Below are positions 3,134 to 20,315 of a DNA stretch of 64,000 nucleotides, in pieces; within the stretch, counting starts at the first letter, position 1; each line of letters starts with the position of its first letter. The DNA comes from Candidatus Methylomirabilota bacterium (GTDB lineage: Bacteria; Desulfobacterota; Binatia; Bin18). The position numbers and the translations under genes are program-made. Under the pieces are notes generated by a model. It saw only the letters and a program-made list of their open reading frames with translations. It searched no databases and was not told the DNA's origin. The DNA is taken from assembly GCA_035575235.1 (NCBI GenBank), contig DATLYA010000316.1, forward strand, positions 32,245 to 96,244, written 5' to 3'.

Positions 3134-3181
3134 AACGCCTTTCTTTTAATGCTCCTCTCACCTGCAGCCGCTCTACGTCTG

Positions 3182-3222
3182 CCTCCCTCTCCCCTAAGGC
3201 GAGGGGGACAGGGTGAGGGGAG
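3182..3222. repeat. G/C-run palindromic repeat (CCCTC..GAGGG family), copy 1
   Basis: cctccctctcccctaaggcgagggggacagggtgaggggag. Similar to 20779..20818, about 22/28 matches by eye in the core. Confidence 0.4.
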
Positions 3223-3256
3223 TCTTTTATATAAAACATCTTCTGATGAGTCTCCA

Positions 3257-3499
3257 ATGCACATCGAAGTCAAACTCTTCGCCAATCTGCGTAAAAACCT
3301 TCCGCCGGGCTCGTGGGGTGGTAAAGCGCAGCTAACCTTAGAGGACGGCGCCACCATCCAGACGCTTATCGATCAGCTCAAGATCCCCATCGAGCTCGCG
3401 CAAATGGTGCTGGTCAACGGCGAACAGACTCGTGAGTTCGACCGCCCGCTCGCCGACGGCGACACGGTCAGCATCTTCCCGCCGGTGGCGGGAGGGTAA
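3257..3499 (+). CDS. MoaD/ThiS-family ubiquitin-like sulfur-carrier protein
   Basis: 80 aa starting at the internal ATG (MHIEVKLFANLR...). Ends exactly in ...FPPVAGG-stop, the diglycine C-terminus typical of MoaD/ThiS. The upstream part of ORF 3149.. lies in the repeat. Confidence 0.75.
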   Translation: MHIEVKLFANLRKNLPPGSWGGKAQLTLEDGATIQTLIDQLKIPIELAQMVLVNGEQTREFDRPLADGDTVSIFPPVAGG

Positions 3500-3635
3500 T
3501 GGAAGATTTATGAGTGGCTTAGAGTGGTTCATGTTTGGCTGCGCCAGGACAGCACTCATAGCGCTACTTGTACTTTTCTGGAAAGCCACCAGCCACTGAC
3601 CGCCGCTTGATCTATGTTAAGCGGGTGCATGAAGA

Positions 3636-8191: not shown

Positions 8192-8301
8192 GCTACGAAC
8201 GTTCAGCCTTCAGCTTCCGACAAAAACATCCATGCAGAAAGAGCGACGATCCCTCACTCGTTCGTTATTGACCGTGTCTGGCTAACCGCTCGACGTTCTT
8301 C

Positions 8302-9114
8302 TTATATCCACTCCCGCCGGCGCCGGATAAATCCCTTTACAACTTCGGCCGTAGTTTCGGGCAGTTCGATATTGAACACATGACTGGCATTGGACAGGAT
8401 GAGTAAGTCTGCGTTGGGAATACGCTGAGCGAGCGTCAGCGAATTTTCCGGCGGCACTAAGCCGTCCTCCTTGCCAGTCACCACTAAAGTCGGCATCGTG
8501 AGCCGAGGTAAGCGATCGTACGTATCATGCCTCTGAATTGCCTGCATCTGCCGCACCATGCCATGTTTGGGCGTCGGATACTGCATGGAGAGTTGATTCA
8601 GCTGAAGCAATACGTCCATATGTTTCTGCATAAACCACGGCGTGACAGCCACCTTGGTCATAATGACCGCGGCTTGCTGGACATCGACGGATTCAATATC
8701 CGCCAGTATCTTCGCCACATCCGGATCTTTTGACAGGACAGCGTATTGTCCGCCACAGTGCGTGCACCCAAGAATAAGCGTCTTTACCCGTTGTGGGTAA
8801 CGTAGAGCAAACTCTTGCGCGATCATACCGCCCATAGAAATACCAAACACATGCGCCTGCTCGATGCCAAGGCTATCAAGCACGCCGGCGGTATCATCAG
8901 CAAACATTTGCATTGAGTATGGCGCATCAGGTTTATCGCTTCGCCCCACTCCTCGATTATCGAACACGATCGTGCGGAAATCGCGCGCAAAAGCCGGCAC
9001 GTTCCAGTGCCAGCCAACGGCGCTGACCGTAAATCCCATAATAAGAATCAAAGGCTCGCCGGCGCCGTGTTCTTCGTAGTACAGGGTAACGCCGTTGGCG
9101 GTAATGTGAGGCAT
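8302..9114 (-). CDS. Alpha/beta-fold hydrolase
   Basis: HG oxyanion region (LILIMGF), nucleophile elbow GISMGG, C-terminal SHVFN histidine. ATG at 9114 after AAAGGA. Confidence 0.8.
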   Translation of the reverse strand: MPHITANGVTLYYEEHGAGEPLILIMGFTVSAVGWHWNVPAFARDFRTIVFDNRGVGRSDKPDAPYSMQMFADDTAGVLDSLGIEQAHVFGISMGGMIAQEFALRYPQRVKTLILGCTHCGGQYAVLSKDPDVAKILADIESVDVQQAAVIMTKVAVTPWFMQKHMDVLLQLNQLSMQYPTPKHGMVRQMQAIQRHDTYDRLPRLTMPTLVVTGKEDGLVPPENSLTLAQRIPNADLLILSNASHVFNIELPETTAEVVKGFIRRRREWI

Positions 9115-9246
9115 GGGTAGTCCTTTCAAAGTGGCAAGTAGCAAGGCATGAGCGGCAAGTGGGAAAGTGACCAGTGAAAAGTTATGGATGAAAACTTAAA
9201 AACCCCGGCCTCTTCACTTGCCACTTTTCATTCCACTCTTCACTGC

Positions 9247-9594
9247 TTACGCTTTCGCCTGTTTTTTCTCCAGCAACTGCCGCTTCCAGTCGAGCATGCG
9301 GGCTTTAGCGGCGGCGGCCTCGGCTTCAGGCACCATATTGTTCTGCTGGTAAAAGCGAGAGAGGACAGTAAAACTCATCGGGTCTTCCGGCGTCAGTTCG
9401 GTCAGCCGCTGCGCAGTAGCGATCGCCTCATCAAGCCGGCCAGCATCAGCATAGGCATGAGCGAGGTCGTGCACAGCTTCAACGTAATTAGGCTCAGCTT
9501 CTAGAATCGCCTTATACGCCGCAATTGCTTCCTCCGTCCGCCCGTCACAGAGCAAATCATATGCTTGATCGTATAGTGCTTGAATATCCGACAT
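9247..9594 (-). CDS. Tetratricopeptide-repeat protein
   Basis: Three TPR-like 34-aa units (..AIAAYKAILEAEPNYVEAVHDLAHAYADAGRLDEAIA..). Confidence 0.75.
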   Translation of the reverse strand: MSDIQALYDQAYDLLCDGRTEEAIAAYKAILEAEPNYVEAVHDLAHAYADAGRLDEAIATAQRLTELTPEDPMSFTVLSRFYQQNNMVPEAEAAAAKARMLDWKRQLLEKKQAKA

Positions 9595-9667
9595 GAATCA
9601 GCCTCCAACACAGGAGAATACTGCTGATGAATTTTGACAACCAACTTCGGTACTGTACGCAACCCTC

Positions 9668-9760
9668 GTAGGGGCGTGGCGCACCCCTACGGCGCAGAGC
9701 GCTTGTGCTGCTAGAGTGTGAGCGCCGATTTTGATCGTCAAAGTTCATTAAAGTTCATTA
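9668..9760 (+). repeat. Hairpin + 57-nt repeat, copy A (upstream of luxE-like gene)
   Basis: gtaggggcgtggcgcacccctac hairpin (9668-9690), followed by gcagagcgcttgtgctgctagagtgtgagcgccgattttgatcgtcaaagttcatta (9694-9750). The last 10 nt are duplicated in tandem (9751-9760). Confidence 0.7.
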
Positions 9761-9893
9761 GCGAGAACTCTACCGTATTTCTTCCATAGGACCAACCCCG
9801 GAAAAAGACAGCAATAGAGATTGGAGACAGAGAAAGAAACAGGGGGCGGCTCGGTTTCAGTTATTTTTCTCTACTGTCCACTTGCTGCAGGTC

Positions 9894-10009
9894 TGTCATT
9901 CTGAGACTCCTTCGGCTCTGCTCAGGATAAACTCCAGCCGAAGAATCTCCTGACACGACCCTGCTTTGGGAGATTCTTCGCCGTCGCTGCGCTCCAGCTC
10001 AGAATGACA
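9894..10009. repeat. Nested-palindrome (MITE/REP-like) element
   Basis: Perfect 12-nt terminal inverted repeats tgtcattctgag / ctcagaatgaca. Internal inverted pair cgaagaatctcc / ggagattcttcg. Confidence 0.65.
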
Positions 10010-10071
10010 ACATTACCGAGACGCGGGGCAAGTTGCCGATCGCCAGGATGCTCCATTAGTATACGTTTTAG

Positions 10072-11136
10072 ATGAATACTCCGATACTCGATTTCATTCG
10101 CAACCCCGCAGGCCAGGACTTTAATGCCCTGGCGTTGCAAGTATTTGCCTACCAGTTTGAACATAATTTGCCCTACCAGCGGTTCTGTCTTGCCCGCCGG
10201 CAGACACCGGAGACCGTGTCACGTTGGCAAGACATTCCCGCCGTGCCTACCGTCGCCTTCAAAGAGCTGGATCTCACCTGTGGGCCGCCGGAAAAGATTT
10301 TTCGCACCAGCGGGACAACGCGCGGGCAAGAGAAACGCGGACGGCATCTTGTGCCGGATTTACAACTGTACCGTGAGTCGGCGCTCGCGCATTTCGCCGC
10401 GTGCGTGCTGCCGGATCACCGCCGCTCGCCGATGCTTGCGTTGATTCCTTCGCCGGAAGCGCGCCCCGATTCGTCCTTGACGCAAATGGCCACATGGGTC
10501 ATGCAAGCCTACGGCGAGACGGGAAGCGCCTATTTCATAGACCCGCACGGCATTCATCTCGACGCGTTTACCGAGGCCGTTTATCAGGCGCAACGCGAGG
10601 GCGTCCCGGTCTGTATTCTCGCGATTACTTCCGCATTAGTAGCGTTCTTCGATCAGTGCGAGGCAAAAGGACGGAGCTTCTCTCTCCCCGGCGGCAGCCG
10701 CATTATGGACACTGGCGGCAACAAAGGTGCAGGCCGTGTGATCTCCCGCAAGGGCTTTCTGCAGTCCTGCTGGAAATATCTTAAAATCGCCGGCTACTAC
10801 TGCGTCAACGAATACGGCATGACGGAAATGGCCTCACAGTTTTACGACAACGTGCTGTACAACCGCTCCCGCCGCAGCAACGAGCCGCGCTACAAGATTG
10901 GTCCGGCGTGGACCCGCACGGTCGTGGTTGATCCGGAAACGCTGCAAGAAGTTCCTCCTGGGCAAACAGGCATCCTGCGCCACTTCGACTTAGCGAACGC
11001 CGGCTCAGTTCTGGCGATTCAAACGGAAGACATAGGCTACGCGGTAGGCGACGGTTTTGAGATCACAGGCCGTGTGCTTGGCGCTGAGCCGCGCGGCTGC
11101 GCGCTTGCGCTGGATGAATTTTTAGCAGCGCAATAG
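10072..11136 (+). CDS. LuxE-family acyl-protein synthetase (adenylate-forming fatty-acid activating enzyme)
   Basis: WQDIPAVPTVAFKELDL...IFRTSGTT matches Vibrio LuxE IDDIPVFPTSVFKF...WFTSSGTN. C-terminus PRGCALALDEFL matches LuxE QKGCALSLTEAF. Confidence 0.85.
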   Translation: MNTPILDFIRNPAGQDFNALALQVFAYQFEHNLPYQRFCLARRQTPETVSRWQDIPAVPTVAFKELDLTCGPPEKIFRTSGTTRGQEKRGRHLVPDLQLYRESALAHFAACVLPDHRRSPMLALIPSPEARPDSSLTQMATWVMQAYGETGSAYFIDPHGIHLDAFTEAVYQAQREGVPVCILAITSALVAFFDQCEAKGRSFSLPGGSRIMDTGGNKGAGRVISRKGFLQSCWKYLKIAGYYCVNEYGMTEMASQFYDNVLYNRSRRSNEPRYKIGPAWTRTVVVDPETLQEVPPGQTGILRHFDLANAGSVLAIQTEDIGYAVGDGFEITGRVLGAEPRGCALALDEFLAAQ

Positions 11137-11346
11137 TCGCGGATTATCCCGCTCAGGATAAATATGACAGAAGATCAACGTAAGAGATCGAAGCACAAGA
11201 ACCGCTTTTTAAGGCTTTGGCGGAGGCTCTACCAGTTAGATAAATTTCTCAGGGTCAAGGACTCTCAATTGGGCGACGTGCCGGTGGATCGGATAACCGA
11301 TCCATCGGGCCAATAGCGCCTCTTACAGTGTCGCGGGGATAGTTTA

Positions 11347-11433
11347 GAGGGGCACGGCGCGCTGTGTCCCTCCAGTGCAGAGCGCTTGTTCTGCTGGAGT
11401 ATGAGCGCCGACTTTGATCGGCAAAGTTCATTA
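11347..11433 (+). repeat. Hairpin + 57-nt repeat, copy B (downstream of luxE-like gene)
   Basis: gaggggcac..gtgtccctc hairpin, then gcagagcgcttgttctgctggagtatgagcgccgactttgatcggcaaagttcatta (11377-11433). This is 52/57 identical to copy A, in the same orientation. Confidence 0.7.
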
Positions 11434-11549
11434 GAGGTCTTGCTGAAAGCGCGAAGCTGGGTCCTAACGCTGTCCGGCACACCGGTCCAGACTTTCACAG
11501 CTACGTTTCCCCTCCCCGACTTTACGTATCACGCCCGCTCTTCTATTTT

Positions 11550-12857
11550 TTGCTTGTGTCTCTGCTCTCGGTTGCTCACCTCAATGACATAGTGGATCGA
11601 CTGCTGGTCGCCCGCGAGCGGACGCTACTCACGCGCTCAGTCAAGAACATTGCGACGCGTATTGACCGCGTTGTTGCTCGCTTCCTTGATTCTGCCTCTG
11701 CCGCGTATCAAGAGGCCGTCGCAAGACTTCCAGAGGAAACCGGGCTCTCACCGGAGATGATTCGCCACACCCTACCGCTGATTTTTCAGGAGTACCGCAG
11801 CGCAAAGCTGATGGAGCTGCTTGATAATGAACTGGGAGCAGCAAGCACACTCGACAGATTCGAGCCGACATGGCGAGGCGAGCGCCGCGCCTGCGGCTTT
11901 CCGCTGATTACCCAAGTGCTGGCTGGCAACATTCCTGGCGCCGGGCTCGACGGCGTCATCTTCGCACTGCTGGTGAAATCGGCCACGCTGGTGAAGACGG
12001 CGTCTGCGGCGCCGTTTCTTCCGCTACAGTTTGCTCGCGTGCTCAATGAGGTTGATCCGGAGCTTGGCCAATGCCTTGCCATCGTCAGTTGGTCGGGAGG
12101 AAATACCGCCTTAGAAGAGGTCGCCTTTTCCCGCGCCGATATCGTGCTGGCCTCGGGATCAGACGAAAGCCTTGCGGCCATTCGTCGGCGCACGCGTGGG
12201 AGGTTTCTTGGCTATGGTCATAAGATCAGCTTTGCCGTAATTGACAAGAATTCGTTGCCCAACGCGCCGACGCTCGCACAGCGCGCTGCTTATGATGTCA
12301 CATTGTTTGATCAACAGGGGTGTCTCTCGCCGCAACTTATTTATGTGCAAGACGGAGGCGCGGCGACTCCTCCAGAGTTCGCAGCGCTGCTCGCGCAAGG
12401 GCTTGCTTACTGGCAACAGCAGCTGCCGCGCGGTGCAATTCCACCAGCAGCAAGTATGGCGATTCGACGCTTACGAGACCAGGCTGAGTGGCAAGCATTA
12501 GCAGGAAAAGACGTGATGCTCTATGCGAGTCCGCACGGCACTGAATGGACCGTTCTCTATGAAGCTGAGCCAACGTTTGCGCCTTCACCGTTGTATCGTA
12601 CTGTGCGCGTCAAACCCTTTTACTCTTTTACGCAACTGGCCGAACTGTTGACTCCTATGCGTCCTTTTCTCGAAGCTGCTGGGGTTGCCATCGCTGCGGA
12701 ACAGTTTGCCCAAGCCGTGGAGCTGCTCGGACAAGCCGGAGTCAGCCGGATATGTCCGATTGGCGCCATGCAACCGCCTCCTCTGAGCTGGCGGCATGGC
12801 GGGAGGCCGCGCCTTGCGGATTTGGTGCGGTGGACGGAAATAGAAAGGAAAGAGTAG
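11550..12857 (+). CDS. LuxC-family acyl-CoA/acyl-protein reductase (aldehyde-forming)
   Basis: ALDH-superfamily-like 435-aa ORF with LFDQQGCLSPQ, the LuxC catalytic-Cys context. Paired with the LuxE homologue. The TTG start is uncertain. Confidence 0.75.
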   Translation: MLVSLLSVAHLNDIVDRLLVARERTLLTRSVKNIATRIDRVVARFLDSASAAYQEAVARLPEETGLSPEMIRHTLPLIFQEYRSAKLMELLDNELGAASTLDRFEPTWRGERRACGFPLITQVLAGNIPGAGLDGVIFALLVKSATLVKTASAAPFLPLQFARVLNEVDPELGQCLAIVSWSGGNTALEEVAFSRADIVLASGSDESLAAIRRRTRGRFLGYGHKISFAVIDKNSLPNAPTLAQRAAYDVTLFDQQGCLSPQLIYVQDGGAATPPEFAALLAQGLAYWQQQLPRGAIPPAASMAIRRLRDQAEWQALAGKDVMLYASPHGTEWTVLYEAEPTFAPSPLYRTVRVKPFYSFTQLAELLTPMRPFLEAAGVAIAAEQFAQAVELLGQAGVSRICPIGAMQPPPLSWRHGGRPRLADLVRWTEIERKE

Positions 12858-12888
12858 CCGGCAGCCAGTAGCCAACATGAAAAAAAAG

Positions 12889-12971
12889 GAATCGGAGAAC
12901 CGGAGACGGGGAGAAGCGGCGAGAGGTCCCTTTTCCCTCACCGTTTCTCCGTTGCGCCGATTCTCCGGTTC
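12889..12971. repeat. Long imperfect intercistronic hairpin (GGAGAA/TTCTCC-rich)
   Basis: Left arm is ggaatcggagaaccggagacggggagaagcggcgagagg. Right arm is ccctcaccgtttctccgttgcgccgattctccggttc. Confidence 0.5.
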
Positions 12972-13016
12972 GTTCTTCTTGCCGACCCTAGAGCGCTCAC
13001 GTATGTTGCTATACGT

Positions 13017-14219
13017 ATGAGCGCCCTTCGGGATGATTTTTTCCGCTTCGTTGCGCAGACCTCGCCCGAGCCGATTGGCATCGAAGTCGAGCGAGCGCAC
13101 GGGTGCATCATTGTAGACAAAAGAGGTCAGGAATACCTCGACCTGCTGTCGGGTATCGGCGTGGCGAGTCTTGGCCATGCGCATCCAGAGGTCGTACAAG
13201 CCATCAAAGACCAGGCGGACCGTTACCTTCATACGATGGTGTACGGCGAATACATTCAAGAACCACAGGTGCGTTTAGCCGCAAAACTTGCCGAAATTGT
13301 TCCTCATCCGTTGTCGATGACGTATTTCACTAACAGTGGCGCGGAAGCGATCGAAGGCGCGTTAAAGACAGCGCGCAAATATACTGGCCGGTCGCGTTTT
13401 GTCAGTTTCCACGGCAGCTTTCACGGTGATACGTTTGGCGCGTTATCGGTAGGCGGGAATCCGTTGTATCGGGCCCCGTTTGAACCGTTGCTTCCCTTGG
13501 TCTCCTTCTTGCCGTTTGGCGATTTCGATGCGATAGCTGCTATAGACGCCACGGTCGCGGCTGTGCTCATCGAACCGATTCAAGGAGAAGGCGGCGTCCG
13601 CATCCCTAACAGCGGCTATCTGGCAAGCCTACAAGAACGTTGTAAAGAAGTTGGCGCGCTGCTGATTTTTGACGAAGTCATCACCGGCCTCGGCAGAACC
13701 GGGCGGCTCTTTGCCGGCGCACACTGGAGCATCACCCCGGACATTCTCGTGCTCGCCAAGGCCCTGGGCGGCGGCATGCCGCTTGGCGCGTTTATCAGCA
13801 CGCCGGATATTATGGCGACTCTTGCTCACGACCCGCCGCTGGCGCATGTGACTACCTTTGGTGGGCATCCGGTGTGCTGTGCGGCGGGGCTTGCTTCTCT
13901 GGAGGTTATCCTGCGCGACCGATTGGCCCAACAGGCGCAAGCCGGCGGCGAAGAGTTTCTGCGGCGCTTGCGTGGACTCATCGGCACGGGCGGTCTCACC
14001 GGAGTGCGCGGCCGCGGCCTATTGATCGGGATGGACTTCGCCTCGCCGGAGGCAACAAAAAGTTTTGTCCGACGCTGTTTTGCCAGAGGCGTCATATTGG
14101 GTTGGACGTTACATCAAGATACCGTCGTGCGTCTGGCCCCGCCCCTGATTATTTCCTCTGAGGAAATCGCCCACGCCGTTGCCGTTATGCGCGAAGCGTT
14201 ACAGACGGGTGAGGCGTGA
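13017..14219 (+). CDS. Class-III (omega / acetylornithine-type) PLP aminotransferase
   Basis: LDLLSGIGVASLGHAHPEVV, TNSGAEAIEGALKTARKYTGR, LIFDEVITGLGRTG and VLAKALGGGMPLGA (PLP-Lys context). Confidence 0.85.
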   Translation: MSALRDDFFRFVAQTSPEPIGIEVERAHGCIIVDKRGQEYLDLLSGIGVASLGHAHPEVVQAIKDQADRYLHTMVYGEYIQEPQVRLAAKLAEIVPHPLSMTYFTNSGAEAIEGALKTARKYTGRSRFVSFHGSFHGDTFGALSVGGNPLYRAPFEPLLPLVSFLPFGDFDAIAAIDATVAAVLIEPIQGEGGVRIPNSGYLASLQERCKEVGALLIFDEVITGLGRTGRLFAGAHWSITPDILVLAKALGGGMPLGAFISTPDIMATLAHDPPLAHVTTFGGHPVCCAAGLASLEVILRDRLAQQAQAGGEEFLRRLRGLIGTGGLTGVRGRGLLIGMDFASPEATKSFVRRCFARGVILGWTLHQDTVVRLAPPLIISSEEIAHAVAVMREALQTGEA

Positions 14220-14295
14220 AACGTGTTGCGTGATGCGTACTGCGTATTCGCTTTACTCGTCTTTCGGCTCATGTCATAAACTTACGTCATACGTT
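14209..14295. repeat. ACGCA/TGCGT-rich repeat family, copy 2
   Basis: gaggcgtgaaacgtgttgcgtgatgcgtactgcgtattcgc ... cttacgtcatacg. Close to the reverse complement of the right arm at 22380-22420. Confidence 0.45.
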
Positions 14296-14311
14296 TTTGC
14301 AGGAGATGATC

Positions 14312-14944
14312 ATGCCGAAGGATACTGTTTCGACTCAGCAATCCCTCTCCCCCGAAACCTTCTTCAAAGAAAAAGTCGCTCCGCAGTTTAGCCGCCGCAT
14401 TGAGGACCTGCGACGGCAGATCATGACGCTGGAACAGCAGGTGCAGGAGCGCCTCACTGCCCAAGGAACAGTGCGTATTGTCGTAGAAGGCGACGGCGGC
14501 GGCGCGTGGTATTTGAACATCAACAAAGGTGAAATGACAGTCACGATGGAACCAGCGTTTCCGCCAGTCATGACCGTGTATCAGCCGCGTGGCTATTTCG
14601 ATTGGGCGGTGTCGATGACCTCTGACGCGGGACTGTTTGGCCCTGGCGCGCGGAGTACTCAAGGCGAGCTGACCAGATCACGCCTGGAGCGCTTGAAGAT
14701 GCTCAAAGGCCTGTTGCAATTTACCTTTACTCATCTCCCGGATGGCGGCGAGCACAGTTTTTGGATTTATTTCGGCGATGGCGAGCGCCCTGCTGTAGCA
14801 CAGACTGTCCTCTCCATCAAAGCGGAAGACGCACAGAGGCTTGCGCGCGGAGAATTGAACCCGCAAGTGGCGTTCATGAGCGGCATTATTAAGGTGACCG
14901 GCGATATGGCGCTCGCTATGCAGTTCGGCGCGGCGATGATGTAG
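14312..14944 (+). CDS. SCP2 sterol/lipid-carrier domain protein
   Basis: C-terminal ...LARGELNPQVAFMSGIIKVTGDMALAMQFG is the canonical SCP2 tail. ATG at 14312 is 6 nt after AGGAG. Confidence 0.7.
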   Translation: MPKDTVSTQQSLSPETFFKEKVAPQFSRRIEDLRRQIMTLEQQVQERLTAQGTVRIVVEGDGGGAWYLNINKGEMTVTMEPAFPPVMTVYQPRGYFDWAVSMTSDAGLFGPGARSTQGELTRSRLERLKMLKGLLQFTFTHLPDGGEHSFWIYFGDGERPAVAQTVLSIKAEDAQRLARGELNPQVAFMSGIIKVTGDMALAMQFGAAMM

Positions 14945-15024: not shown

Positions 15025-16233
15025 TCAGTCACGGCAGCTTCCCTCCCGACGGCGTTGAGCTCTCTGAAGGAATACCCATAATAATCCTCCAGCAAAGACA
15101 TATGTTCCGATCGCCGTTGCCCACAGGAACCATGAGAGTCGGTCAAAGAGCGCGAGCAGGAACAGCATATAGGCGAAATCTCTTCCGGTGATGCGCTCGT
15201 ACAGTTCCATCAGTGGCGTTCTCTTTCCGTCTTTTTCCGTCAGGCCTGCAGAGGAACGGAAAATCGCGACATACGCGACAGCCATTGCACAGAGCACTCC
15301 CAGCAAGGTAACGAACGCCAAGGTTATATACAGCGGCAATTGGGTCTCACGATACAGGCTCACTGCAATGCCGGGAAACAACAGCAGGTGGACAATATTG
15401 TCGGCGATCAGATCAAATTTCGCGCCGAAGTCGGACTCTAAAAACTTGAGGCGGGCCAGCTCCCCGTCACAACCGTCAATTGTTGTGGAGACCAGTAATA
15501 CCACCGCCCCGCACACGCGTGGCCAATAGTGCGGCTGTATGAGCAGCCAGACACTCAACAGCCCAAGGGCAAACGAGAACGCGGTAATCTGGTTCGGCGT
15601 GATGCGTGTATGAGCAAGTCGGCGAGTGACGGCGCGCGAGACTTTGCGATCGAGCGCCCGCGCCAGAAAGCCGTCCGTGTCGCGCCCCAAGCTCGCGAAC
15701 AAACGCCGCTCGACCTCTTGCTGTCCAAGCGTGAGCGGCGCCCATAACCCCTTATGAATGGTTACAGGGGACAGGGAACAGGGAACAGGGAACGGTGTAG
15801 GAGGTGTTCGGAGTTTCGTCCGCAATAGCGTCCACAAGCATGGTGCTGCCCCGCGATAGACGTCCGTCTCCTGGCCGGAGCCAGTCAAGAACGTTACCGG
15901 CGTTGGCGCTGGGAGTGGAGAGGTCAGCGCCTGACGGATGAATGCCGAGGTGAAAACGGCCGTACACGACAGCAGAAGGGCTTCGGCGTCTCCGATCCAG
16001 TTGCTCAGCAGCTTTTCGCTTGCTTCAATCTGATCGATGAGGGCATAGGATATCCTTTGTAACCGCGGCTCCGATGTCAAGAGCTGCTGGATTGGGAAAA
16101 TCTCAATCTGCGAGATGATCAGCCACTCGGTCACGCCACCCCTGTGGCCGGCGCAGAGTGCGCGAGCGAGCAGCGGCAGTCCCGCGACAACCATCAACGC
16201 CGCTTGATCGTGCACCAGTAAAATGGCCTTCAT
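15025..16233 (-). CDS. CDP-alcohol phosphotransferase (DIPPS-like membrane domain) fused to a degenerate nucleotidyltransferase-like N-domain
   Basis: Signature DGCDGELARLKFLESDFGAKFDLIAD (D-G-x2-A-R-x8-G-x3-D-x3-D). Preceded by DGFLARALDRKVSRAVTRRLAHTRITPNQIT, as in IPCT/DIPPS enzymes. Multiple TM helices. The N-terminal 150 aa starts MKAILLVHDQAALMVVAGLPLL. Confidence 0.75.
   Translation of the reverse strand: MKAILLVHDQAALMVVAGLPLLARALCAGHRGGVTEWLIISQIEIFPIQQLLTSEPRLQRISYALIDQIEASEKLLSNWIGDAEALLLSCTAVFTSAFIRQALTSPLPAPTPVTFLTGSGQETDVYRGAAPCLWTLLRTKLRTPPTPFPVPCSLSPVTIHKGLWAPLTLGQQEVERRLFASLGRDTDGFLARALDRKVSRAVTRRLAHTRITPNQITAFSFALGLLSVWLLIQPHYWPRVCGAVVLLVSTTIDGCDGELARLKFLESDFGAKFDLIADNIVHLLLFPGIAVSLYRETQLPLYITLAFVTLLGVLCAMAVAYVAIFRSSAGLTEKDGKRTPLMELYERITGRDFAYMLFLLALFDRLSWFLWATAIGTYVFAGGLLWVFLQRAQRRREGSCRD
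15765..15792. repeat. 4 x tandem heptamer CAGGGRA inside the CDS linker
   Basis: cagggga cagggaa cagggaa cagggaa. Encodes FPVPCSLSPV on the minus strand. Confidence 0.8.
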
Positions 16234-16239
16234 AGTTGA

Positions 16240-17253
16240 TCACAAGGGAAGACGCACGCCTCCCTGCCGATGCGACGCATATCCTTGCTGTAAAAGCGCC
16301 AGACACGTCGCGGCGGCGCGAAGATTTGCTTCACCAGAAGATGGCTCTTCCAGGGCCTGGTAAAAATCATCGAGCAGCGGCGCGAACCATTCAGGGTGAT
16401 AAGAGGAGGCGATTATCGACTCGGGAAATCGTTGCGCGCATCCGGGCTCGTCAGGGCGCTCAAGGAGTAAGGAGACGGCGTCGAAATAAATCGTTCCTTT
16501 CGTTCCGCGTACGTATCCCTCATTGGCCCGGCGGTCGGCTCTCCAGGTGAGGTAAAATTGGACGCTTGCACTCCCGCAGCTTATGGTTCCCGCCGCTGTC
16601 TCTTCAATATCAACGGCGCCGCAGCCTGGAGGTTCGAGCCGCGCGGCGATTGCAGTTGGCGCTTTTTGCAAAAGAAAAGGCGCGAGATAAAACAGATGCC
16701 ACCCATGATCTACCAGAATGCCGCCGCCGGCTATGCGCCGATCTGTTCGCCATGACCCCGAGCCATGCGATGCGCCGGCTGGGTGGGCGCGCAGGACCTT
16801 CCACGCCAAACACTCAGGCGCGCCAATCGTCTCAGCTGCGATGGTTGCCCGTAGAGTTTGCAAAAGCGGCGCGTATTGCCAATTGTGCACGGTAAAAACA
16901 GCACGGTCGCGTTCAACGGCGTACCGTTGCAGTTGTCGCATGAGTGCGGCAGAGAGCGTCAGCGGCTTCTCACATAAAATGTGCACACTCTGTTCACACG
17001 CGCGCAGCAAGACGGTGTCGTGCAGCATCGGAGGCGTACAAATATCAACGAAGTCAATCTGCTCACGCGCCAGGCAGGCTTCGATGCTACCATAACACGC
17101 CGCGTCCGGCAGGAGGGTGCGCGCCAGCTGTAACCGCTCAGGCAACGGGTCGACAACAGCTATGAGCTCGAAACGCGTGTCCTGCAGCCAGGCTGAAAGA
17201 TGGCCATGGACCGCAACATTGCCAAAGCCAATGATCGCTCCTCGATAGCTCAC
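16240..17253 (-). CDS. Gfo/Idh/MocA-family NAD(P)-dependent dehydrogenase
   Basis: GAIIGFGNVAVHGH Rossmann N-terminus and ...ILCEKPL... motif. Confidence 0.8.
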   Translation of the reverse strand: MSYRGAIIGFGNVAVHGHLSAWLQDTRFELIAVVDPLPERLQLARTLLPDAACYGSIEACLAREQIDFVDICTPPMLHDTVLLRACEQSVHILCEKPLTLSAALMRQLQRYAVERDRAVFTVHNWQYAPLLQTLRATIAAETIGAPECLAWKVLRAHPAGASHGSGSWRTDRRIAGGGILVDHGWHLFYLAPFLLQKAPTAIAARLEPPGCGAVDIEETAAGTISCGSASVQFYLTWRADRRANEGYVRGTKGTIYFDAVSLLLERPDEPGCAQRFPESIIASSYHPEWFAPLLDDFYQALEEPSSGEANLRAAATCLALLQQGYASHRQGGVRLPL

Positions 17254-18599
17254 GCCTGGTAATCCACCTTATCAGCCACGAAGTCAAAGACCTCGTCAAG
17301 AATGGCGAGGCCCGTCTCCGCCAGCTCCAAAGAAATCGTCAGCGGCGGATTGAGCCGCACACGCGGCATGTAGCCCATCATGAGTAGTCCGCGCTTCAAT
17401 GCCTCTTGAAAAATCAGCTCCGTCACTTCGCGACGCAGCCCGATTTTGGACTGACGATCCTTCACCAGATCGAGGCCGATCAACAACCCTGCCCCACGCA
17501 CATCGCCGAGAAACTCGTACTTCTCTTGCATGGCGCGCAACCGCTCAAGCATGAAGGCGCCAACCCGCCGGGCGTTGTCTACTACTCCCTCGTCTTCGAT
17601 CGTCTCTATCGTACTCAACGCAGCAGCGGCCGCCAGCGGGTTTCCCCCATAACTCGACGAGGATGCACTGGGCTGAGAAAATGGCTTCGCCGCCATTATC
17701 TCATCACTGGAGATGACCCCAGTAACGGGAAATCCATTACCCATCCCTTTACCAACAGTCATGATGTCTGGCGTCACGCCGCTTAGCGCACAGCCAAACA
17801 GGTTTCCCGTGCGGCCAAAGCCGGTGATCATCTCGTCAACAATGAACAGGGCGTCATGCTCCCGGGCGACCTCTTTCATTACGGGAAGAAACTCAGGCGG
17901 AGGAACGATATTCCCCGCCGTGCCCTGCACCGGCTCGATGAGAAACGCCGCGATGGCGCCGCCGCTCGTGTGCTTCAGGCTCGTGCGAATGAAATCGGCG
18001 CAGGCGAGCCCGCATCCTGGGTAGCGCAGGTTGAGCGGACAACGATAGCAATCGGCATAGGGCACAAGATGAGTTCCACCAGGCAAGGGCCCCCAGCCCT
18101 GCTTAAAATTGTCGCCAACGAGGCCGAGCACCCCACCCGTCTTGCCATGAAATCCGCCCCAAAAGCCGACAACCTCATATTTTTTCGTGTATGCTTTCGC
18201 CAGCCGCAGCGCCGCCTCCACCGCCTCGGCGCCGCCGCTGAACAATTGAATCCGGTTGAGGTTGCCAGGCGTCAGCGCCGCAATTTTTTGCACAAGCCGT
18301 ACGCGCGCCTCCGAGGTGAAACTCCCGACAGTCACCCGGCGTAACTGTTCTTCAAGGGCGGCAACGTAGCGGGGATGGCTGTGCCCCAGGCTCGCCACAG
18401 TTACCCCGGCAAAAAAGTCGATAAAGGTGTTGCCGTCAACGTCCGTCAGAGTTGCGCCCTCGCCGTGGTCAAAGACCACGCCAGAGAGCAGAGAGATGCG
18501 CTGAATGCCTGGCGCCAAAAACGCCTGCTCAGTCTTCACTAACTGTTGCGAGCGCGGACCAGGAACACTCGTTCTTACAACCGGAAGCTTGCCACTCAC
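17250..18599 (-). CDS. Class-III PLP aminotransferase (GabT-like)
   Basis: FIDFFAGVTVASLGHSHP, SGGAEAVEAALRLAK, LFIVDEMITGFGRTG, MTVGKGMGNGFP. 4-nt overlaps with both neighbours. Confidence 0.85.
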   Translation of the reverse strand: MSGKLPVVRTSVPGPRSQQLVKTEQAFLAPGIQRISLLSGVVFDHGEGATLTDVDGNTFIDFFAGVTVASLGHSHPRYVAALEEQLRRVTVGSFTSEARVRLVQKIAALTPGNLNRIQLFSGGAEAVEAALRLAKAYTKKYEVVGFWGGFHGKTGGVLGLVGDNFKQGWGPLPGGTHLVPYADCYRCPLNLRYPGCGLACADFIRTSLKHTSGGAIAAFLIEPVQGTAGNIVPPPEFLPVMKEVAREHDALFIVDEMITGFGRTGNLFGCALSGVTPDIMTVGKGMGNGFPVTGVISSDEIMAAKPFSQPSASSSSYGGNPLAAAAALSTIETIEDEGVVDNARRVGAFMLERLRAMQEKYEFLGDVRGAGLLIGLDLVKDRQSKIGLRREVTELIFQEALKRGLLMMGYMPRVRLNPPLTISLELAETGLAILDEVFDFVADKVDYQA

Positions 18600-19459
18600 A
18601 GCGCTTGTTGTATCCGGCCCAGCAGGTGGTCAGCAATCGCCTGCGCCGCCGCATGGCGGCAGCGAGCAAAGCTTGGCCAATCGTTTAAGTCGATCAGCAC
18701 GAGAGTTCCCTCCGCTGAGAGGATACAATCTCCGCCAAAGACTTCAAGTCCAACCGCAGACGCTGCCCGGGTCGCCAAGGCGCCGACCTGCCGGCGCGTG
18801 TGCGCTTCAACCTCGGGGCAATCAAAGAAGCAACCAGGACCAACTCCATAAAACTTGATGACCGGCCCAGGGCAATGCCTTTGCAGCAGCGCTTGGACAA
18901 TGCCGCGACGAGCAAATGCCGCGAGCGCGGCATGATATGCGGCTGCTTCTTGCACAAAGACGACATCATCCGGCTGCGTGGCGTGCACGTCGGCGCGTTT
19001 AAGCCAGAAGCCGCCTGAAAAATCTGTAGGCCCAGGCTCCCGTGCCTGCCCATCTCTAGGACGCCTCTGGCAGGTTGCCCCTACGAAAGGTAGGAAAGAG
19101 AGTGCGTGAGAAGCGTCTGCAGTATTCACCGCCCAACTTTCCGGCATCAATACTCCCGCCGCGCGGCACAGCTCAACAGTCCGCGCCCGGCGGCAATTCC
19201 AGACCGCTGTGGGACTGTTAATCACCAGTGAACCGTGAGCCTGCCAGTGTTGAAGCTTGTGCAAATTCGCTCCTCCCTGCGCCATGGAAAACACTAGCCC
19301 TGGAGGCTTGGCGTCGCTCTGCAGCTCCTCCGTGCTCCAAAGCCGGACACGAACGCCACGCCGCCCAACCTCAGCAGCGACGGCTTCAAGGATGAGCGCA
19401 TCGTCACCGGTCCGTCCGGGAGAGAACATCGCTTCCCGGTACACGCCAACCACCTCCAT
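18596..19459 (-). CDS. ATP-grasp fold protein (ligase or ITPK1-like kinase type)
   Basis: ...FWLKRADVHATQPDDVVFV...VIKFYGVG...GLEVFGGDCILSAEGTLVLIDLNDWPSF resembles the ATP-grasp C-terminal Mg/ATP site. Start taken at ATG 19459, after GAGGAGG. The ORF-track start 19588 is the alternative. Confidence 0.55.
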   Translation of the reverse strand: MEVVGVYREAMFSPGRTGDDALILEAVAAEVGRRGVRVRLWSTEELQSDAKPPGLVFSMAQGGANLHKLQHWQAHGSLVINSPTAVWNCRRARTVELCRAAGVLMPESWAVNTADASHALSFLPFVGATCQRRPRDGQAREPGPTDFSGGFWLKRADVHATQPDDVVFVQEAAAYHAALAAFARRGIVQALLQRHCPGPVIKFYGVGPGCFFDCPEVEAHTRRQVGALATRAASAVGLEVFGGDCILSAEGTLVLIDLNDWPSFARCRHAAAQAIADHLLGRIQQAL

Positions 19460-19595
19460 TGCTTCCGCCTCCTCGCTCTGCCCCGGATTGTATTTCAGGC
19501 CACAGGGTTGGTCATGAGAAAAGCCGGGAGAGAATAGCCATGGCCTGTGTACGATGTATGGAGCGCCAACTATGTTTGCGCACTCCACAGTGCGC

Positions 19596-20315
19596 TTAGA
19601 GCGGGGTTAGACATTTCTCCTCTTCAGCAAGAAACGCCTCCGCCACAGCGATATCAGAGGGACGGTCTACATCAATTACTTTAGAAATATGATGTCCATA
19701 GAGCACATAACCGCTCGCAACGAGATAGCCGAAGAACTGACGCAAGGCGGTAAAATTCCTGTGCTGCGCTGTCTCTGCCTCCCGGAACACGCTCGGTGAG
19801 AACCAATACACCCCAGCAGTCACCAGTCCACCGGTGCGCGCCGATGGACCAAGCTGAACAACGCGATAGTCTTCGGCAAGCATCGCCCATAATGGTTTTT
19901 CATCATCAACGAATGACGTAACGCCGAGCACGCCATCGGCGTCAGGATGCCGCCGCGCCGTTGCTACCAATGCCGGAATTGTCGAGGAAGGAAACACCGC
20001 ATCGACCGTACAAAGCAGAAACGAATCTGCGTCAAGATACGGCTGCAGCGTCAGAAAACTCTCCAAGGAATGCGCTGTGCTTTTGCTCAACAGCGTGACG
20101 GGCATTCCCCATTCATGCTCCCGGCAATATTGAATGACCTCGGAAAATTTCTGGTTGACGATAACAACAGCTGCTTCGATTCCAGCTTGCTGAAGCCCGC
20201 GCAGGAGACGGGCGATGAGCGGTTGTCCGGCCAGCAGCGTCAGCGGTTTTGGCGTTGTCACACCGTGCGCTCGTAAACGCTGTCCTTCGCCAGCCGCAAG
20301 GATTGCCGCTCTCAT
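19596..20315 (-). CDS. Nucleotidyltransferase (LicC / IPCT-like cytidylyltransferase type)
   Basis: MRAAILAAGEGQRLR....PKPL is the intact G-x-G-x-R signature. About 240 aa with a ...GVYWFS... and ...VIDVDRPSDIAVAE tail, as in LicC-like enzymes. Confidence 0.8.
   Translation of the reverse strand: MRAAILAAGEGQRLRAHGVTTPKPLTLLAGQPLIARLLRGLQQAGIEAAVVIVNQKFSEVIQYCREHEWGMPVTLLSKSTAHSLESFLTLQPYLDADSFLLCTVDAVFPSSTIPALVATARRHPDADGVLGVTSFVDDEKPLWAMLAEDYRVVQLGPSARTGGLVTAGVYWFSPSVFREAETAQHRNFTALRQFFGYLVASGYVLYGHHISKVIDVDRPSDIAVAEAFLAEEEKCLTPL

What the first reader, a model, noticed from the sequence alone, without database searches (positions are those of the whole stretch)
10072..14944. LuxE/LuxC fatty-acid-reductase pair coupled to an omega-type aminotransferase and SCP2, with no luxA/B/D
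The LuxE homology is visible directly (DIPAVPTVAFK / FRTSGTT / GCALALDEFL versus Vibrio LuxE). The LuxC homologue keeps the acylated-Cys context (DQQGCLSPQ). In Vibrio, LuxE activates a fatty acid and LuxC reduces it to the aldehyde.

Here the next gene is a class-III aminotransferase, the family that aminates aldehydes or omega-positions. It is followed by an SCP2 lipid-carrier domain protein. This reads as an acid -> aldehyde -> primary amine module for a hydrophobic substrate. There is no luciferase or LuxD thioesterase nearby.
Basis: partly seen in the sequence, partly recalled or inferred. Interest (0 to 1): 0.7.

Follow-up and report, generated by a model that had tools for sequence, protein, structure and literature searches.

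The report
Acid-to-amine enzyme trio, possibly preQ1 synthesis
Three neighbouring genes that should turn a carboxylic acid into an aldehyde and then into a primary amine are kept together in three bacterial phyla, and their gene neighbours elsewhere suggest they act not on fatty acids but on a small ring-shaped acid, possibly making the tRNA-modification precursor preQ1 by an undescribed route.

Summary
The four genes are present as described: LuxE-like 10072-11136, LuxC-like 11550-12857, class-III aminotransferase (AT) 13017-14219 and SCP2 14297-14944.

The acid -> aldehyde -> amine logic is supported:
- The AT orthologue sits beside LuxE-LuxC in Binatia, Methylomirabilota (upstream, different order) and Nitrospirota.
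- The AT is not ArgD. The carboxylate-binding Arg of AcOAT/OAT/GABA-AT is Asp138.
- The LuxE C-terminal Cys and the LuxC catalytic Cys are conserved.

The "hydrophobic substrate plus SCP2" part is not supported:
- SCP2 follows the AT only in one Binatia subclade.
- The LuxC-like protein lacks the C-terminal element that closes LuxC's fatty-acyl cleft.

Relatives point to small heteroaromatic acids:
- In Bacillota and Actinobacteria, LuxE-LuxC lie behind TPP riboswitches, with thiamin-precursor transporters and an OarX-like SDR.
- In AT-linked lineages the trio is fused into operons with queuosine genes: QueE-LuxE-LuxC-AT with a 7-nt gap, and QueG-AT-LuxE-LuxC.

QueE makes 7-carboxy-7-deazaguanine, and preQ1 is its aminomethyl analogue. 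My leading hypothesis (about 0.4) is a QueC/QueF bypass. It is untested: I could not check whether queC and queF are absent from these genomes.

The parts
10072..11136 (+). LuxE-like ATP-dependent acyl-protein synthetase (354 aa). It is predicted to adenylate the acid and load it on its own C-terminal Cys343.
   Evidence: Pfam LuxE scores 50.1 bits. In the phmmer alignment to 7XC6_E, R334 aligns with LuxE R355 and C343 with LuxE C364 (residue roles from PMC9157457). The C-terminal GR-x9-RGC motif is seen in every clade's listed sequences, and 58 of 67 naive ORFs have a Cys in the last 20 residues.
11368..11439 (+). Copy 2 of a 72-nt repeat inside the 413-nt LuxE-LuxC spacer. This is an insertion, not a functional part of the module.
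   Evidence: It is 86% identical to copy 1 at 9685-9756. The core pattern occurs only in this strain's contigs, L001-L003. Rfam finds nothing there.
11550..12857 (+). LuxC-like acyl-thioester reductase (435 aa; NCBI start at 11556). The catalytic Cys258 lies in DQQGCLS.
   Evidence: Pfam LuxC scores 252.1 bits. It aligns to 7XC6_A with the Cys motif in register. Cys258 is invariant in 14 homologues. The protein lacks the C-terminal lid of LuxC.
13017..14219 (+). Dedicated class-III (omega-type) aminotransferase (400 aa). It has the PLP-binding Lys248, Asp138 in place of the carboxylate-binding Arg, and Arg372 retained for the amino-acid or 2-oxoacid co-substrate.
   Evidence: Pfam Aminotran_3 scores 357.8 bits. 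The best PDB hit is putrescine AT, followed by AcOAT. The alignment with E. coli ArgD, PatA and GabT is. Linkage to LuxE-LuxC holds in three phyla.
14297..14944 (+). SCP2-domain protein (215 aa; NCBI aa from 14312). It is a lineage-specific downstream neighbour, and its membership of the module is doubtful.
   Evidence: Pfam SCP2 scores 53.9 bits. It follows the AT only in a Binatia subclade. It is not homologous to the gene that follows the AT in L088.

Best explanation
The core is a three-enzyme module that converts a free carboxylic acid into the corresponding primary amine.

**Proposed steps**
1. The LuxE-like enzyme adenylates the acid and transfers it to its own C-terminal Cys343.
2. The acyl group passes to Cys258 of the LuxC-like reductase and is released as an aldehyde using NAD(P)H.
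3. The dedicated class-III aminotransferase aminates the aldehyde from an amino-acid donor.

**What is shown and what is inferred**
- Shown: the families, the conserved catalytic residues and the conserved linkage.
- Inferred: the direction of the pathway and the chemistry, by analogy with LuxCE and omega-transaminases.

**Substrate**
The substrate I think most likely is 7-carboxy-7-deazaguanine (CDG), the product of QueE. The aldehyde would then be 7-formyl-7-deazaguanine and the amine would be preQ1 (7-aminomethyl-7-deazaguanine). On this reading the trio replaces QueC (nitrile synthase) and QueF (nitrile reductase) in queuosine biosynthesis. This step is inferred from gene neighbourhoods in relatives and from chemical fit only.

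**Confidence by level**
- The trio works as an acid -> aldehyde -> amine unit: about 0.75.
- The acid is CDG: about 0.4.
- SCP2 is probably an unrelated or accessory neighbour.
For: **Mechanism**
- The Pfam LuxE, LuxC and Aminotran_3 assignments are.
- The LuxC catalytic Cys and the LuxE C-terminal Cys and Arg align with the residues shown by mutagenesis and structure in PMC9157457.
- These motifs are conserved across the family: 77 of 80 LuxC ORFs have DQ[QE]GC, and RGC sits at the LuxE C-terminus in all clades.

**Coupling to the AT**
- The gene order differs between phyla: LuxE-LuxC-AT in Binatia and Nitrospirota, AT-LuxE-LuxC in NC10.
- Gaps between LuxC and AT are 10-20 nt or the genes overlap in L054, L056, L088 and L090.
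- Three further AT homologues picked by AT similarity alone all sit directly after LuxE-LuxC.
- The AT lacks the carboxylate-binding Arg. It is Asp in Binatia, NC10 and Nitrospirota and Gly in L042. The role of that Arg is described in PMC4244111.
- The AT is 59-68% identical between phyla, which argues for one shared amine product.

**CDG as the substrate**
- In L042 the genes run QueE 8196-8831, LuxE 8838-9914, LuxC to 11302, AT 11303-12556. The gaps are 7 nt and 1 nt, and the gene order matches the proposed reaction order.
- In L043, QueE 2925-3617 lies 108 nt upstream of LuxE-LuxC.
- Both QueE proteins pass the NCBIfam QueE model TIGR04349: 310 and 315 bits against 300.
- In 8 NC10 genome loci and 10 metagenome loci, QueG sits on the same strand directly upstream of AT-LuxE-LuxC; the gap is about 93-108 nt in the two loci measured (L048, L045). 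This QueG scores 385 against 200 on TIGR00276.

**Against a fatty substrate**
- Family members in other phyla are under TPP riboswitches with pyrimidine- or thiazole-type transporters. The fold therefore handles small heteroaromatic acids.
- LuxE is related to phenylacetate-CoA ligase PaaK (PMC9157457).
Against: - The window itself holds no queuosine gene in 64 kb, and none lies within 10 kb of the trio in Binatia or Nitrospirota.
- The queuosine link rests on two independent lineages: L042/L043 and NC10. This is my own inference.
- No preQ1 riboswitch lies upstream in any AT-linked locus scanned.
- The key prediction, that genomes with the trio lack queC and queF, could not be tested.
- Binatia LuxC-like proteins carry lineage-specific changes in otherwise conserved motifs: CLSPQ, LYR, RHGG and LEA instead of CLSPH, LNR, HHDG and LQT. 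They could therefore differ in substrate from the NC10 and L042 enzymes.
- Some Binatia loci have LuxE-LuxC with no AT within 10 kb.
- Specificity clearly varies within the family, as the TPP-regulated branch shows.
Confidence: 0.4

Rival explanations
1. The chemistry is the same (acid -> aldehyde -> amine) but the substrate is a different small polar acid. [quoted passage not shown] Reduction and amination would give 4-amino-5-aminomethyl-2-methylpyrimidine, the substrate of TenA. Any other unidentified acid also falls under this heading.
For: - Homologous LuxE-LuxC pairs (36-44% identity) sit directly behind TPP riboswitches (56-90 bits). This holds in 4 Bacillota loci, 4 Arthrobacter loci and 1 Chloroflexota locus.
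- Those pairs share operons with an SsuA/NMT1-type ABC transporter, an NCS2 permease or an SSS (ThiV-like) permease, a FabG-like SDR, and ThiM/ThiE/ThiD.
- A neighbour-joining tree places the AT-linked and TPP-linked clades in one family.
- Carboxyl oxidation products of thiamin are the substrates proposed for the orphan OarX (PMC11223231).
Against: - No TPP riboswitch and no thiamin gene lies near any AT-linked locus or in the window.
- The OarX-type SDR is absent from AT-linked loci.
- An amine route to HMP would be a detour compared with direct reduction.
- The only pathway genes fused to the AT-linked trio are queuosine genes.
Confidence: 0.25
2. A fatty or otherwise hydrophobic acid is reduced to a fatty aldehyde and aminated to a fatty amine, and the SCP2 protein carries the lipid.
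For: - The enzymes belong to the LuxE and LuxC families, and an SCP2-domain gene lies 77 nt downstream of the AT on the same strand.
- There are precedents for thioester reductase plus class-III transaminase making alkylamines or amine precursors. These are TabE (a member of the LuxC cluster) with TabA, TamH, and PigE (the NCBIfam PigE model scores 315 bits).
Against: - SCP2 is restricted to one Binatia subclade and is absent from all other phyla with the trio.
- The LuxC-like protein has 173-177 residues after the catalytic Cys in most Binatia ORFs, against about 192 in LuxC. It ends where LuxC's P460-P488 lid begins.
- Several hydrophobic cleft positions are polar here. This comes from mapping, and the alignment is only about 25% identical.
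- There are no lipid-metabolism genes, thioesterase or ACP in the conserved neighbourhood.
- Both Lux-like proteins are far below the LuxE and LuxC equivalog cut-offs.
Confidence: 0.1
3. The aminotransferase is not functionally coupled to the pair. LuxE-LuxC make an aldehyde for another fate, such as reduction to an alcohol as in the SDR-linked relatives, and the AT is a neighbour with an unrelated role.
For: - In 22 Binatia loci, unrelated genes (RelA_SpoT, an epimerase, unknowns) lie between LuxC and the AT.
- Many lineages have LuxE-LuxC without any AT nearby.
- In the window the genes are separated by 159-413 nt spacers.
Against: - Adjacency recurs in three phyla with a rearranged order and very short gaps.
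- The AT forms its own subfamily with a changed substrate-binding residue.
- AT homologues sampled independently of LuxC were all next to LuxE-LuxC.
Confidence: 0.1

Closest known systems
LuxC-LuxE fatty acid reductase of luminous bacteria (PDB 7XC6; PMC9157457)
   Same: - Both are two-protein systems made of the same Pfam families.
- The LuxE C-terminal acyl-accepting Cys and the catalytic Arg are conserved, as is the LuxC catalytic Cys.
- The two genes are adjacent or overlapping in relatives.
   Different: - There is no luxA, luxB or luxD.
- Scores are far below the equivalog cut-offs.
- The C-terminal lid of the hydrophobic cleft is absent.
- The pair is joined to an aminotransferase.
- Contexts in relatives are vitamin and tRNA-modification genes rather than lipid genes.
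Thioester or carboxylate reductase plus class-III transaminase routes to amines: TabE/TabA (tambjamine BE-18591), TamH, PigE
   Same: The logic is the same: an activated acid is reduced to an aldehyde, and a class-III aminotransferase then makes the amine. TabE falls in the same sequence-similarity cluster as LuxC (bioRxiv 10.1101/2025.08.11.669332).
   Different: - Those are secondary-metabolite enzymes acting on ACP-bound C12 or polyketide chains, and they have no LuxE partner.
- Here a LuxE-type self-acylating synthetase is used.
- The trio is a conserved chromosomal unit across whole phyla.
- The neighbourhoods are not biosynthetic gene clusters.
QueC + QueF (CDG -> preQ0 -> preQ1) of queuosine biosynthesis
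   Same: If the leading hypothesis holds, the input (CDG, from QueE) and the output (preQ1) are the same. The trio is fused to queE or queG in two lineages.
   Different: - The protein families are unrelated, and the proposed chemistry goes through an aldehyde rather than a nitrile.
- The route would use 1 ATP, 1 NAD(P)H and an amino-acid donor, instead of 2 ATP, NH3 and 2 NADPH. This costing is from general knowledge of the QueC and QueF reactions.
- There is no experimental evidence, and I found no report of such a route.
OarX, the orphan TPP-riboswitch-controlled SDR (PMC11223231)
   Same: Relatives of the window's LuxE-LuxC pair are co-operonic with a FabG-like SDR behind TPP riboswitches. 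The SDRs from L083 and L080 both just pass NCBIfam NF006393. This fits the 'activate, reduce to aldehyde, reduce to alcohol' salvage scheme that paper proposes.
   Different: - The window has an aminotransferase, not the SDR, and no TPP riboswitch.
- Orthology of these SDRs to C. glutamicum OarX was not tested, because no sequence was available.
ArgD / AcOAT, PatA, GabT (class-III aminotransferases)
   Same: The fold, the PLP-binding Lys and the C-terminal Arg for the 2-oxoacid are shared. PatA and AcOAT are the best PDB hits, at 285 and 273 bits.
   Different: - The substrate-carboxylate Arg (Lys183 in PatA) is Asp138 here.
- The score is below the argD cut-off.
- There is no arg-gene context.

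Membership tests
LuxE acyl-protein synthetase (PF04443) | Pfam model above the gathering score | tested here: met
   50.1 bits against 24.9, over residues 17-351.
LuxE acyl-protein synthetase (PF04443) | Short C-terminal motif with the acyl-accepting Cys (LuxE C364) and the catalytic Arg (R355) | tested here: met
   C343 and R334 align with C364 and R355 (PMC9157457). The motif is conserved family-wide. The Lys238 equivalent (K218 in GGNK) is only inferred, because the alignment is gapped at that point.
LuxE acyl-protein synthetase (PF04443) | True long-chain-fatty-acid--protein ligase (NCBIfam equivalog NF052244) | tested here: not met
   44.3 bits against a cut-off of 550.
LuxC acyl-thioester reductase (PF05893) | Pfam model above the gathering score, and a catalytic Cys | tested here: met
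   252.1 bits against 21. Cys258 in DQQGCLS aligns with DQQACFS of 7XC6_A.
LuxC acyl-thioester reductase (PF05893) | True LuxC (NCBIfam equivalog NF052251) with the C-terminal segment P460-P488 that closes the long hydrophobic cleft | tested here: not met
   76.4 bits against 750. The protein ends about where that segment starts, with 173-177 residues after the Cys in most Binatia ORFs against about 192 in LuxC.
lux operon (luxCDABE) | Luciferase genes luxA/luxB and the thioesterase gene luxD in the cluster | tested here: not met
   None within about 10 kb. The distant LLM genes are not LuxA/B. The upstream alpha/beta hydrolase is PcaD-like.
ArgD / acetylornithine aminotransferase | Score above the curated argD model cut-off | tested here: not met
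   TIGR00707 scores 378.5 against 410.05, and NF002874 scores 377.9 against 457. NCBI names the identical protein only 'aspartate aminotransferase family protein'.
ArgD / acetylornithine aminotransferase | Arg that binds the substrate carboxylate (FHGR motif; OAT Arg180) | tested here: not met
   It is Asp138 in SFHGDT, and the same change is seen in the NC10 and Nitrospirota orthologues. The role of the Arg is from PMC4244111.
Thiamin (TPP-riboswitch) regulon branch of the LuxE-LuxC family | TPP riboswitch upstream, and thiamin transport, salvage or SDR partner genes | tested here: not met
   The features are present in Bacillota, Actinobacteria and one Chloroflexota locus. They are absent from the window and from all AT-linked loci scanned.
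Queuosine / preQ1 biosynthesis (proposed QueC-QueF bypass) | Physical linkage of the trio to queuosine genes | tested here: inconclusive
   Linkage is met in two lineages of relatives: QueE-LuxE-LuxC-AT in L042/L043, and QueG-AT-LuxE-LuxC in NC10. It is not met in the window, other Binatia or Nitrospirota.
Queuosine / preQ1 biosynthesis (proposed QueC-QueF bypass) | Genomes with the trio have queD, queE, tgt and queA but lack queC and queF | not testable with these tools
Queuosine / preQ1 biosynthesis (proposed QueC-QueF bypass) | Conversion of CDG to preQ1 in vitro or in vivo | not testable with these tools
   This needs enzymology or complementation.
SCP2 sterol-carrier domain (PF02036) | Pfam model above the gathering score | tested here: met
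   53.9 bits against 21.3, over residues 128-213. There is no NCBIfam hit.

The most novel reading that the evidence does not exclude
The LuxE-like, LuxC-like and aminotransferase trio is a non-orthologous replacement for QueC and QueF. It would reduce QueE's product, 7-carboxy-7-deazaguanine, to 7-formyl-7-deazaguanine and transaminate it to preQ1. That would be a nitrile-free route to queuosine in Binatia, Methylomirabilota, Nitrospirota and related lineages. Its paralogous branch behind TPP riboswitches would do the analogous acid -> aldehyde (-> alcohol, with the OarX-like SDR) salvage of oxidised thiamin moieties.
Probability: 0.4. Interest if true: 0.85.

Novelty: new variant of a known kind. 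Interest (0 to 1): 0.68.

Why it matters
**If the leading reading is right**
- The queuosine pathway, regarded as fully known in bacteria, would have a second and cheaper branch from CDG to preQ1. That branch would use enzyme families now annotated as "acyl-CoA reductase", "acyl-protein synthetase" and "aspartate aminotransferase family protein".
- Queuosine capability would then be mis-predicted for whole phyla.
- A new natural carboxylate-reductase/transaminase pair for N-heteroaromatic acids would become available for biocatalysis.

**Independently of that reading**
- LuxE-LuxC relatives sit in TPP-riboswitch operons with an OarX-like SDR.
- This gives a concrete, testable partner set for OarX, whose role has been open for about 20 years. 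The recent genetic tests were negative in an organism for which no LuxE/LuxC partner is mentioned (PMC11223231).

**At the least**
- It shows that the LuxC/LuxE name should not be read as "fatty acid".

Tried and rejected
**Riboswitches and RNA motifs**
- I looked for TPP or preQ1 riboswitches, or any Rfam family, upstream of the trio in the window, Binatia, NC10, Nitrospirota, L042 and L088-L090. None was found, including an E-value scan of 9400-13100.
- I asked whether the 72-nt repeat upstream of LuxE and of LuxC is a regulatory RNA. It is strain-specific and has no Rfam match, so I treat it as a mobile repeat.

**Gene neighbourhoods**
- tblastn found no thiamin genes (ThiD, ThiE, ThiM) near AT-linked loci.
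- A QueD-like hit near a Verrucomicrobia LuxC (L070) was discounted. It lies next to a PabA-like gene and may be a folate-type PTPS.
- The metagenome scan, run to find more lineages with queuosine adjacency, gave only NC10 again plus one QueE 9.5 kb away.
- A viral-contig scan found no relatives.
- The gene after the AT in L088 is not homologous to SCP2.
- The SDRs near WOR-3 and Binatia loci are only 25-35% identical to the TPP-linked SDR, so they are generic.

**Sequence signatures and structure**
- I first thought AT-linked and TPP-linked LuxC proteins had different active-site signatures. The difference is Binatia-specific, not clade-of-function-specific, so I dropped the idea.
- The AlphaFold model of the LuxC-like protein had mean pLDDT 49 and was unusable, so I ran no fold search.

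**Tests I could not complete**
- I tried to decide whether the AT is the genome's only ArgD by finding a second ArgD. This was not possible with the tools, so I used the active-site Arg test instead.
- OarX sequences from the paper's supplement are not held.
- Two extra context look-ups returned short, uninformative contigs.

**Literature**
- Searches for LuxC/LuxE together with a TPP riboswitch, thiamin, CDG or preQ1 found nothing relevant.

Full report
**1. The observation**

Four + strand ORFs occupy 10072-14944:
- A LuxE-like protein at 10072-11136 (354 aa). Pfam LuxE scores 50.1 bits against 24.9.
- A LuxC-like protein at 11550-12857 (435 aa). Pfam LuxC scores 252.1 bits against 21.
- A class-III aminotransferase (AT) at 13017-14219 (400 aa). 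Aminotran_3 scores 357.8 bits.
- An SCP2-domain protein at 14297-14944 (215 aa). Pfam SCP2 scores 53.9 bits against 21.3.

- In phmmer alignments to the cryo-EM LuxC-LuxE complex, DQQGCLS (Cys258) lines up with DQQACFS of LuxC.
- The C-terminal GR..RGCALAL (Arg334, Cys343) lines up with VRR..KGCSLSM of LuxE.
- These are the catalytic Cys of LuxC and the Arg355/Cys364 of LuxE defined in PMC9157457.

Neither protein is a true LuxE or LuxC by NCBI's equivalog models: 44 against 550 and 76 against 750.

No luxA, luxB or luxD lies within about 10 kb. Two luciferase-like-monooxygenase family genes lie further off, at 27654-28499 and 39282-40475. They are F420-type or generic LLM proteins.

The window comes from a Binatia-like MAG. 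Identical proteins and gene order occur in GCA_037024575.1 and two sister assemblies, and the closest LuxC relatives are labelled Candidatus Binatia.

**2. Is the aminotransferase really coupled, and is it ArgD?**

I fetched 80 genome loci and 80 metagenome loci around LuxC homologues. I then located homologues of each window gene by tblastn.

| Group | AT orthologue (at least 45% identity) relative to LuxE-LuxC |
|---|---|
| Binatia (40 loci) | Within 300 nt downstream of LuxC in 13; 0.6-3.4 kb downstream with unrelated genes between in 22; absent within 10 kb in 5 |
| Methylomirabilota (NC10) | Immediately upstream of LuxE in 8 loci (order AT-LuxE-LuxC) |
| Nitrospirota-like | Immediately downstream of LuxC in 5 of 5 |
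| Actinobacteria, Bacillota, Chloroflexota, Verrucomicrobia, WOR-3 | Present in 0 of 25 loci |

Three further AT homologues, chosen only by similarity to a Nitrospirota AT, all sit directly after LuxE-LuxC.

Within Binatia the linkage could be inherited synteny. The rearranged order and the short or overlapping junctions in other phyla argue for function.

The AT is not a housekeeping ArgD or GabT.
- It falls below the argD model cut-off (378.5 against 410.05).
- Its best solved relative is putrescine aminotransferase.
- In an alignment with E. coli ArgD, GabT and PatA, the Arg of the FHGR motif is Asp138 in SFHGDT.
- The same position is Asp in the NC10 and Nitrospirota orthologues and Gly in L042.
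- The PLP-binding Lys248 and the C-terminal Arg372 are retained.

**3. SCP2 and the "hydrophobic substrate"**

The SCP2 gene follows the AT only in a Binatia subclade. It is present in 6 of 13 Binatia genome loci with an adjacent AT and in 5 Binatia-like metagenome loci. It is absent from all other lineages. The gene that follows the AT in L088 is unrelated to it.

The family's LuxC-like proteins differ from LuxC at the C-terminus.
- Most Binatia ORFs have 173-177 residues after the catalytic Cys, against about 192 in LuxC.
- The alignment of a family member to 7XC6_A stops at chain residue 449 of 477.
- The missing segment is the element (P460-P488) that reaches over the neighbouring subunit to close the hydrophobic L-shaped cleft, which is over 40 A long and holds the myristoyl chain (PMC9157457).

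Mapping the published cleft residues through the alignment puts polar residues at several of them: His73, Asp134 and Glu375. That alignment is only about 25% identical, so I treat this point as suggestive.

No lipid-metabolism gene is conserved nearby.

**4. What the relatives say about the substrate**

*(a) A thiamin branch*
- In Bacillota (L069, L078, L083, L084), LuxE-LuxC lie directly behind TPP riboswitches scoring 56-90 bits. The same holds in all four Arthrobacter loci (L077, L080-L082) and in one Chloroflexota locus.
- The Bacillota operons read: riboswitch, LuxE, LuxC, ABC ATPase, permease, SsuA/NMT1-type binding protein, FabG-like SDR.
- In Paenibacillus (L069) an NCS2 nucleobase-type permease lies between the riboswitch and LuxE.
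- In Arthrobacter an SSS (ThiV-like) permease precedes LuxE-LuxC, and an SDR follows where it was called (L080). A divergent riboswitch-controlled thiM-thiE-thiD operon lies alongside.
- The SDRs of the two phyla are 52% identical, and both just pass NCBIfam NF006393.
- This matches the description of OarX, an orphan TPP-riboswitch SDR. OarX is proposed to reduce carboxyl oxidation products of thiamin "after activation ... via an aldehyde". The paper does not mention LuxC or LuxE (PMC11223231).

*(b) A queuosine link in the AT-linked branch*
- In L042 the genes are QueE 8196-8831, LuxE 8838-9914, LuxC to 11302, AT 11303-12556. The gaps are 7 nt and 1 nt.
- In L043, QueE lies 108 nt upstream of LuxE-LuxC.
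- Both QueE proteins pass the curated QueE model TIGR04349.
- In NC10, QueG precedes AT-LuxE-LuxC on the same strand in 8 genome loci and 10 metagenome loci; the gap is about 100 nt in the two loci measured. This QueG scores 385 against 200 on TIGR00276.

QueE's product is a carboxylic acid, 7-carboxy-7-deazaguanine (CDG). The next free intermediate of the pathway, preQ1, is the corresponding aminomethyl compound. These assignments are established queuosine biochemistry, summarised in PMC5372724.

A LuxE/LuxC/AT sequence would make preQ1 from CDG without QueC or QueF. In L042 the gene order equals the proposed reaction order.

The AT is 59-68% identical between Binatia, Nitrospirota and L042. 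That argues these enzymes make the same amine.

**5. Mechanism proposed, and how sure I am**

Shown:
- the family memberships;
- the conserved catalytic residues;
- the conserved three-gene linkage;
- the non-ArgD active site;
- the thiamin and queuosine contexts in relatives.

Inferred:
- the acid is adenylated and loaded on LuxE Cys343;
- it is passed to LuxC Cys258 and reduced to an aldehyde;
- the aldehyde is aminated by the AT.

I put the trio-as-a-unit at about 0.75 and CDG -> preQ1 at about 0.4.

Weaknesses:
- There is no queuosine gene in the window or near Binatia or Nitrospirota trios.
- Only two independent lineages show the fusion.
- There is no preQ1 riboswitch.
- Binatia LuxC carries lineage-specific motif changes.
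- The decisive phyletic test could not be run.

Rivals:
- another small polar acid, for example the thiamin pyrimidine carboxylate giving aminomethylpyrimidine: 0.25;
- the fatty acid/SCP2 reading: 0.1;
- no functional coupling: 0.1.

**6. Comparison with what is known**

The parts are known families, and the logic has precedents. A reductase followed by a class-III transaminase is seen in TabE/TabA, TamH and PigE.

Several things appear to be new. I found no report of any of them:
- a LuxE-type self-acylating synthetase, a LuxC-type reductase and a dedicated AT as a conserved chromosomal trio across phyla;
- their fusion to queE and queG;
- the TPP-riboswitch control of the sister branch.

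The LuxC-like family is modest in size. It has 686 clusters at 50% identity with E at most 1e-30, out of 1.84 billion representatives.

I class the finding as a new variant of a known kind.

**7. Verdict**

Interest is 0.68. The window's module is a well-conserved unit of unknown substrate with a specific, cheap-to-test and surprising candidate function. The analysis also yields a direct experimental handle on the OarX problem.

Noticed in passing
L078, L083, L084, L069 (Bacillota); L077, L080, L081, L082 (Arthrobacter); L066 (Chloroflexota): Homologues of the window's LuxE-LuxC pair lie directly behind TPP riboswitches. They share operons with an SsuA/NMT1-type ABC transporter, an NCS2 permease or an SSS permease, and with a FabG-like SDR resembling the orphan OarX. 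This would supply the 'activation plus reduction to aldehyde' steps that the OarX literature lacks.
   Followed up: partly
window 9685-9756 and 11368-11439: Two copies (86% identical) of a structured 72-nt repeat in the same orientation. One lies upstream of LuxE and one inside the 413-nt LuxE-LuxC spacer. The repeat occurs only in this strain's contigs. The first copy includes a terminator-like hairpin followed by a T-run.
   Followed up: yes
window about 9897-10010 and 12897-12971: Further long imperfect palindromes in the intergenic regions. One, upstream of LuxE, has GTCATTCTGAG...CTCAGAATGAC outer arms. The other, between LuxC and the AT, has 26-nt arms that are 73% complementary. They look like REP/MITE-type elements that have inflated the spacers of this cluster.
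   Followed up: partly
window 15025-20315 (- strand): A convergent operon of five genes: NTP-transferase, a protein with a weak ATP-grasp (RimK-like) hit, a second class-III aminotransferase (449 aa), a Gfo/Idh/MocA (inositol-dehydrogenase-like) oxidoreductase, and a 402-aa DIPP-synthase-like CDP-alcohol phosphatidyltransferase. Together they suggest synthesis of an amino-inositol (aminocyclitol) phosphate solute or head group. The operon is present only in this strain's lineage, inserted between SCP2 and the genes that follow the AT in other Binatia.
   Followed up: partly
L048 and other NC10 loci (LarC, LarB upstream, opposite strand); L042 12671-14101 (LarA homologue directly after the AT): Nickel-pincer (Lar) cofactor genes lie next to the trio in two lineages. 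This may be chance, and I found no chemical link.
   Followed up: partly
L088 916-9811: One long same-strand string with 2-14 nt junctions around the trio: MetK, AhcY, two MetE-like (Meth_synt_2) genes, LuxE, LuxC, AT and an unknown 202-aa gene. It places SAM-cycle genes directly upstream of the trio in one lineage.
   Followed up: no
L076, L100, L107, L109 (WOR-3-like): Tandem duplications of LuxE (up to three copies) and LuxC (two copies), interleaved with two small recurring gene families of unidentified function. This suggests diversification of the pair on several substrates.
   Followed up: no
L009, L020, L034, L036, L041, L044, L016: Record titles call these contigs Klebsiella pneumoniae, Enterobacteriaceae, Acidobacteriaceae or Nitrososphaera. 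Their genes are 57-64% (L044 47%) identical to the window's LuxC-like protein, most share Binatia synteny, and L044 groups with NC10. The bins appear to be mislabelled.
   Followed up: partly
window 27654-28499 and 39282-40475: Two luciferase-like monooxygenase family genes. One passes the F420-dependent LLM model TIGR03619. They are unrelated to LuxA/B but could mislead a name-based search for lux genes.
   Followed up: yes
LuxC-like proteins of Binatia (e.g. window residues 258-262, 346-350, 414-419, 374-376): Binatia alone changed four otherwise family-wide motifs: CLSPH to CLSPQ, LNR to LYR, HHDG to RHGG, and LQT to LEA. In LuxC, the positions equivalent to Q402 and D443 are essential entry-site residues. 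The paired Q-to-E and D-to-G change looks like a relocated carboxylate.
   Followed up: partly
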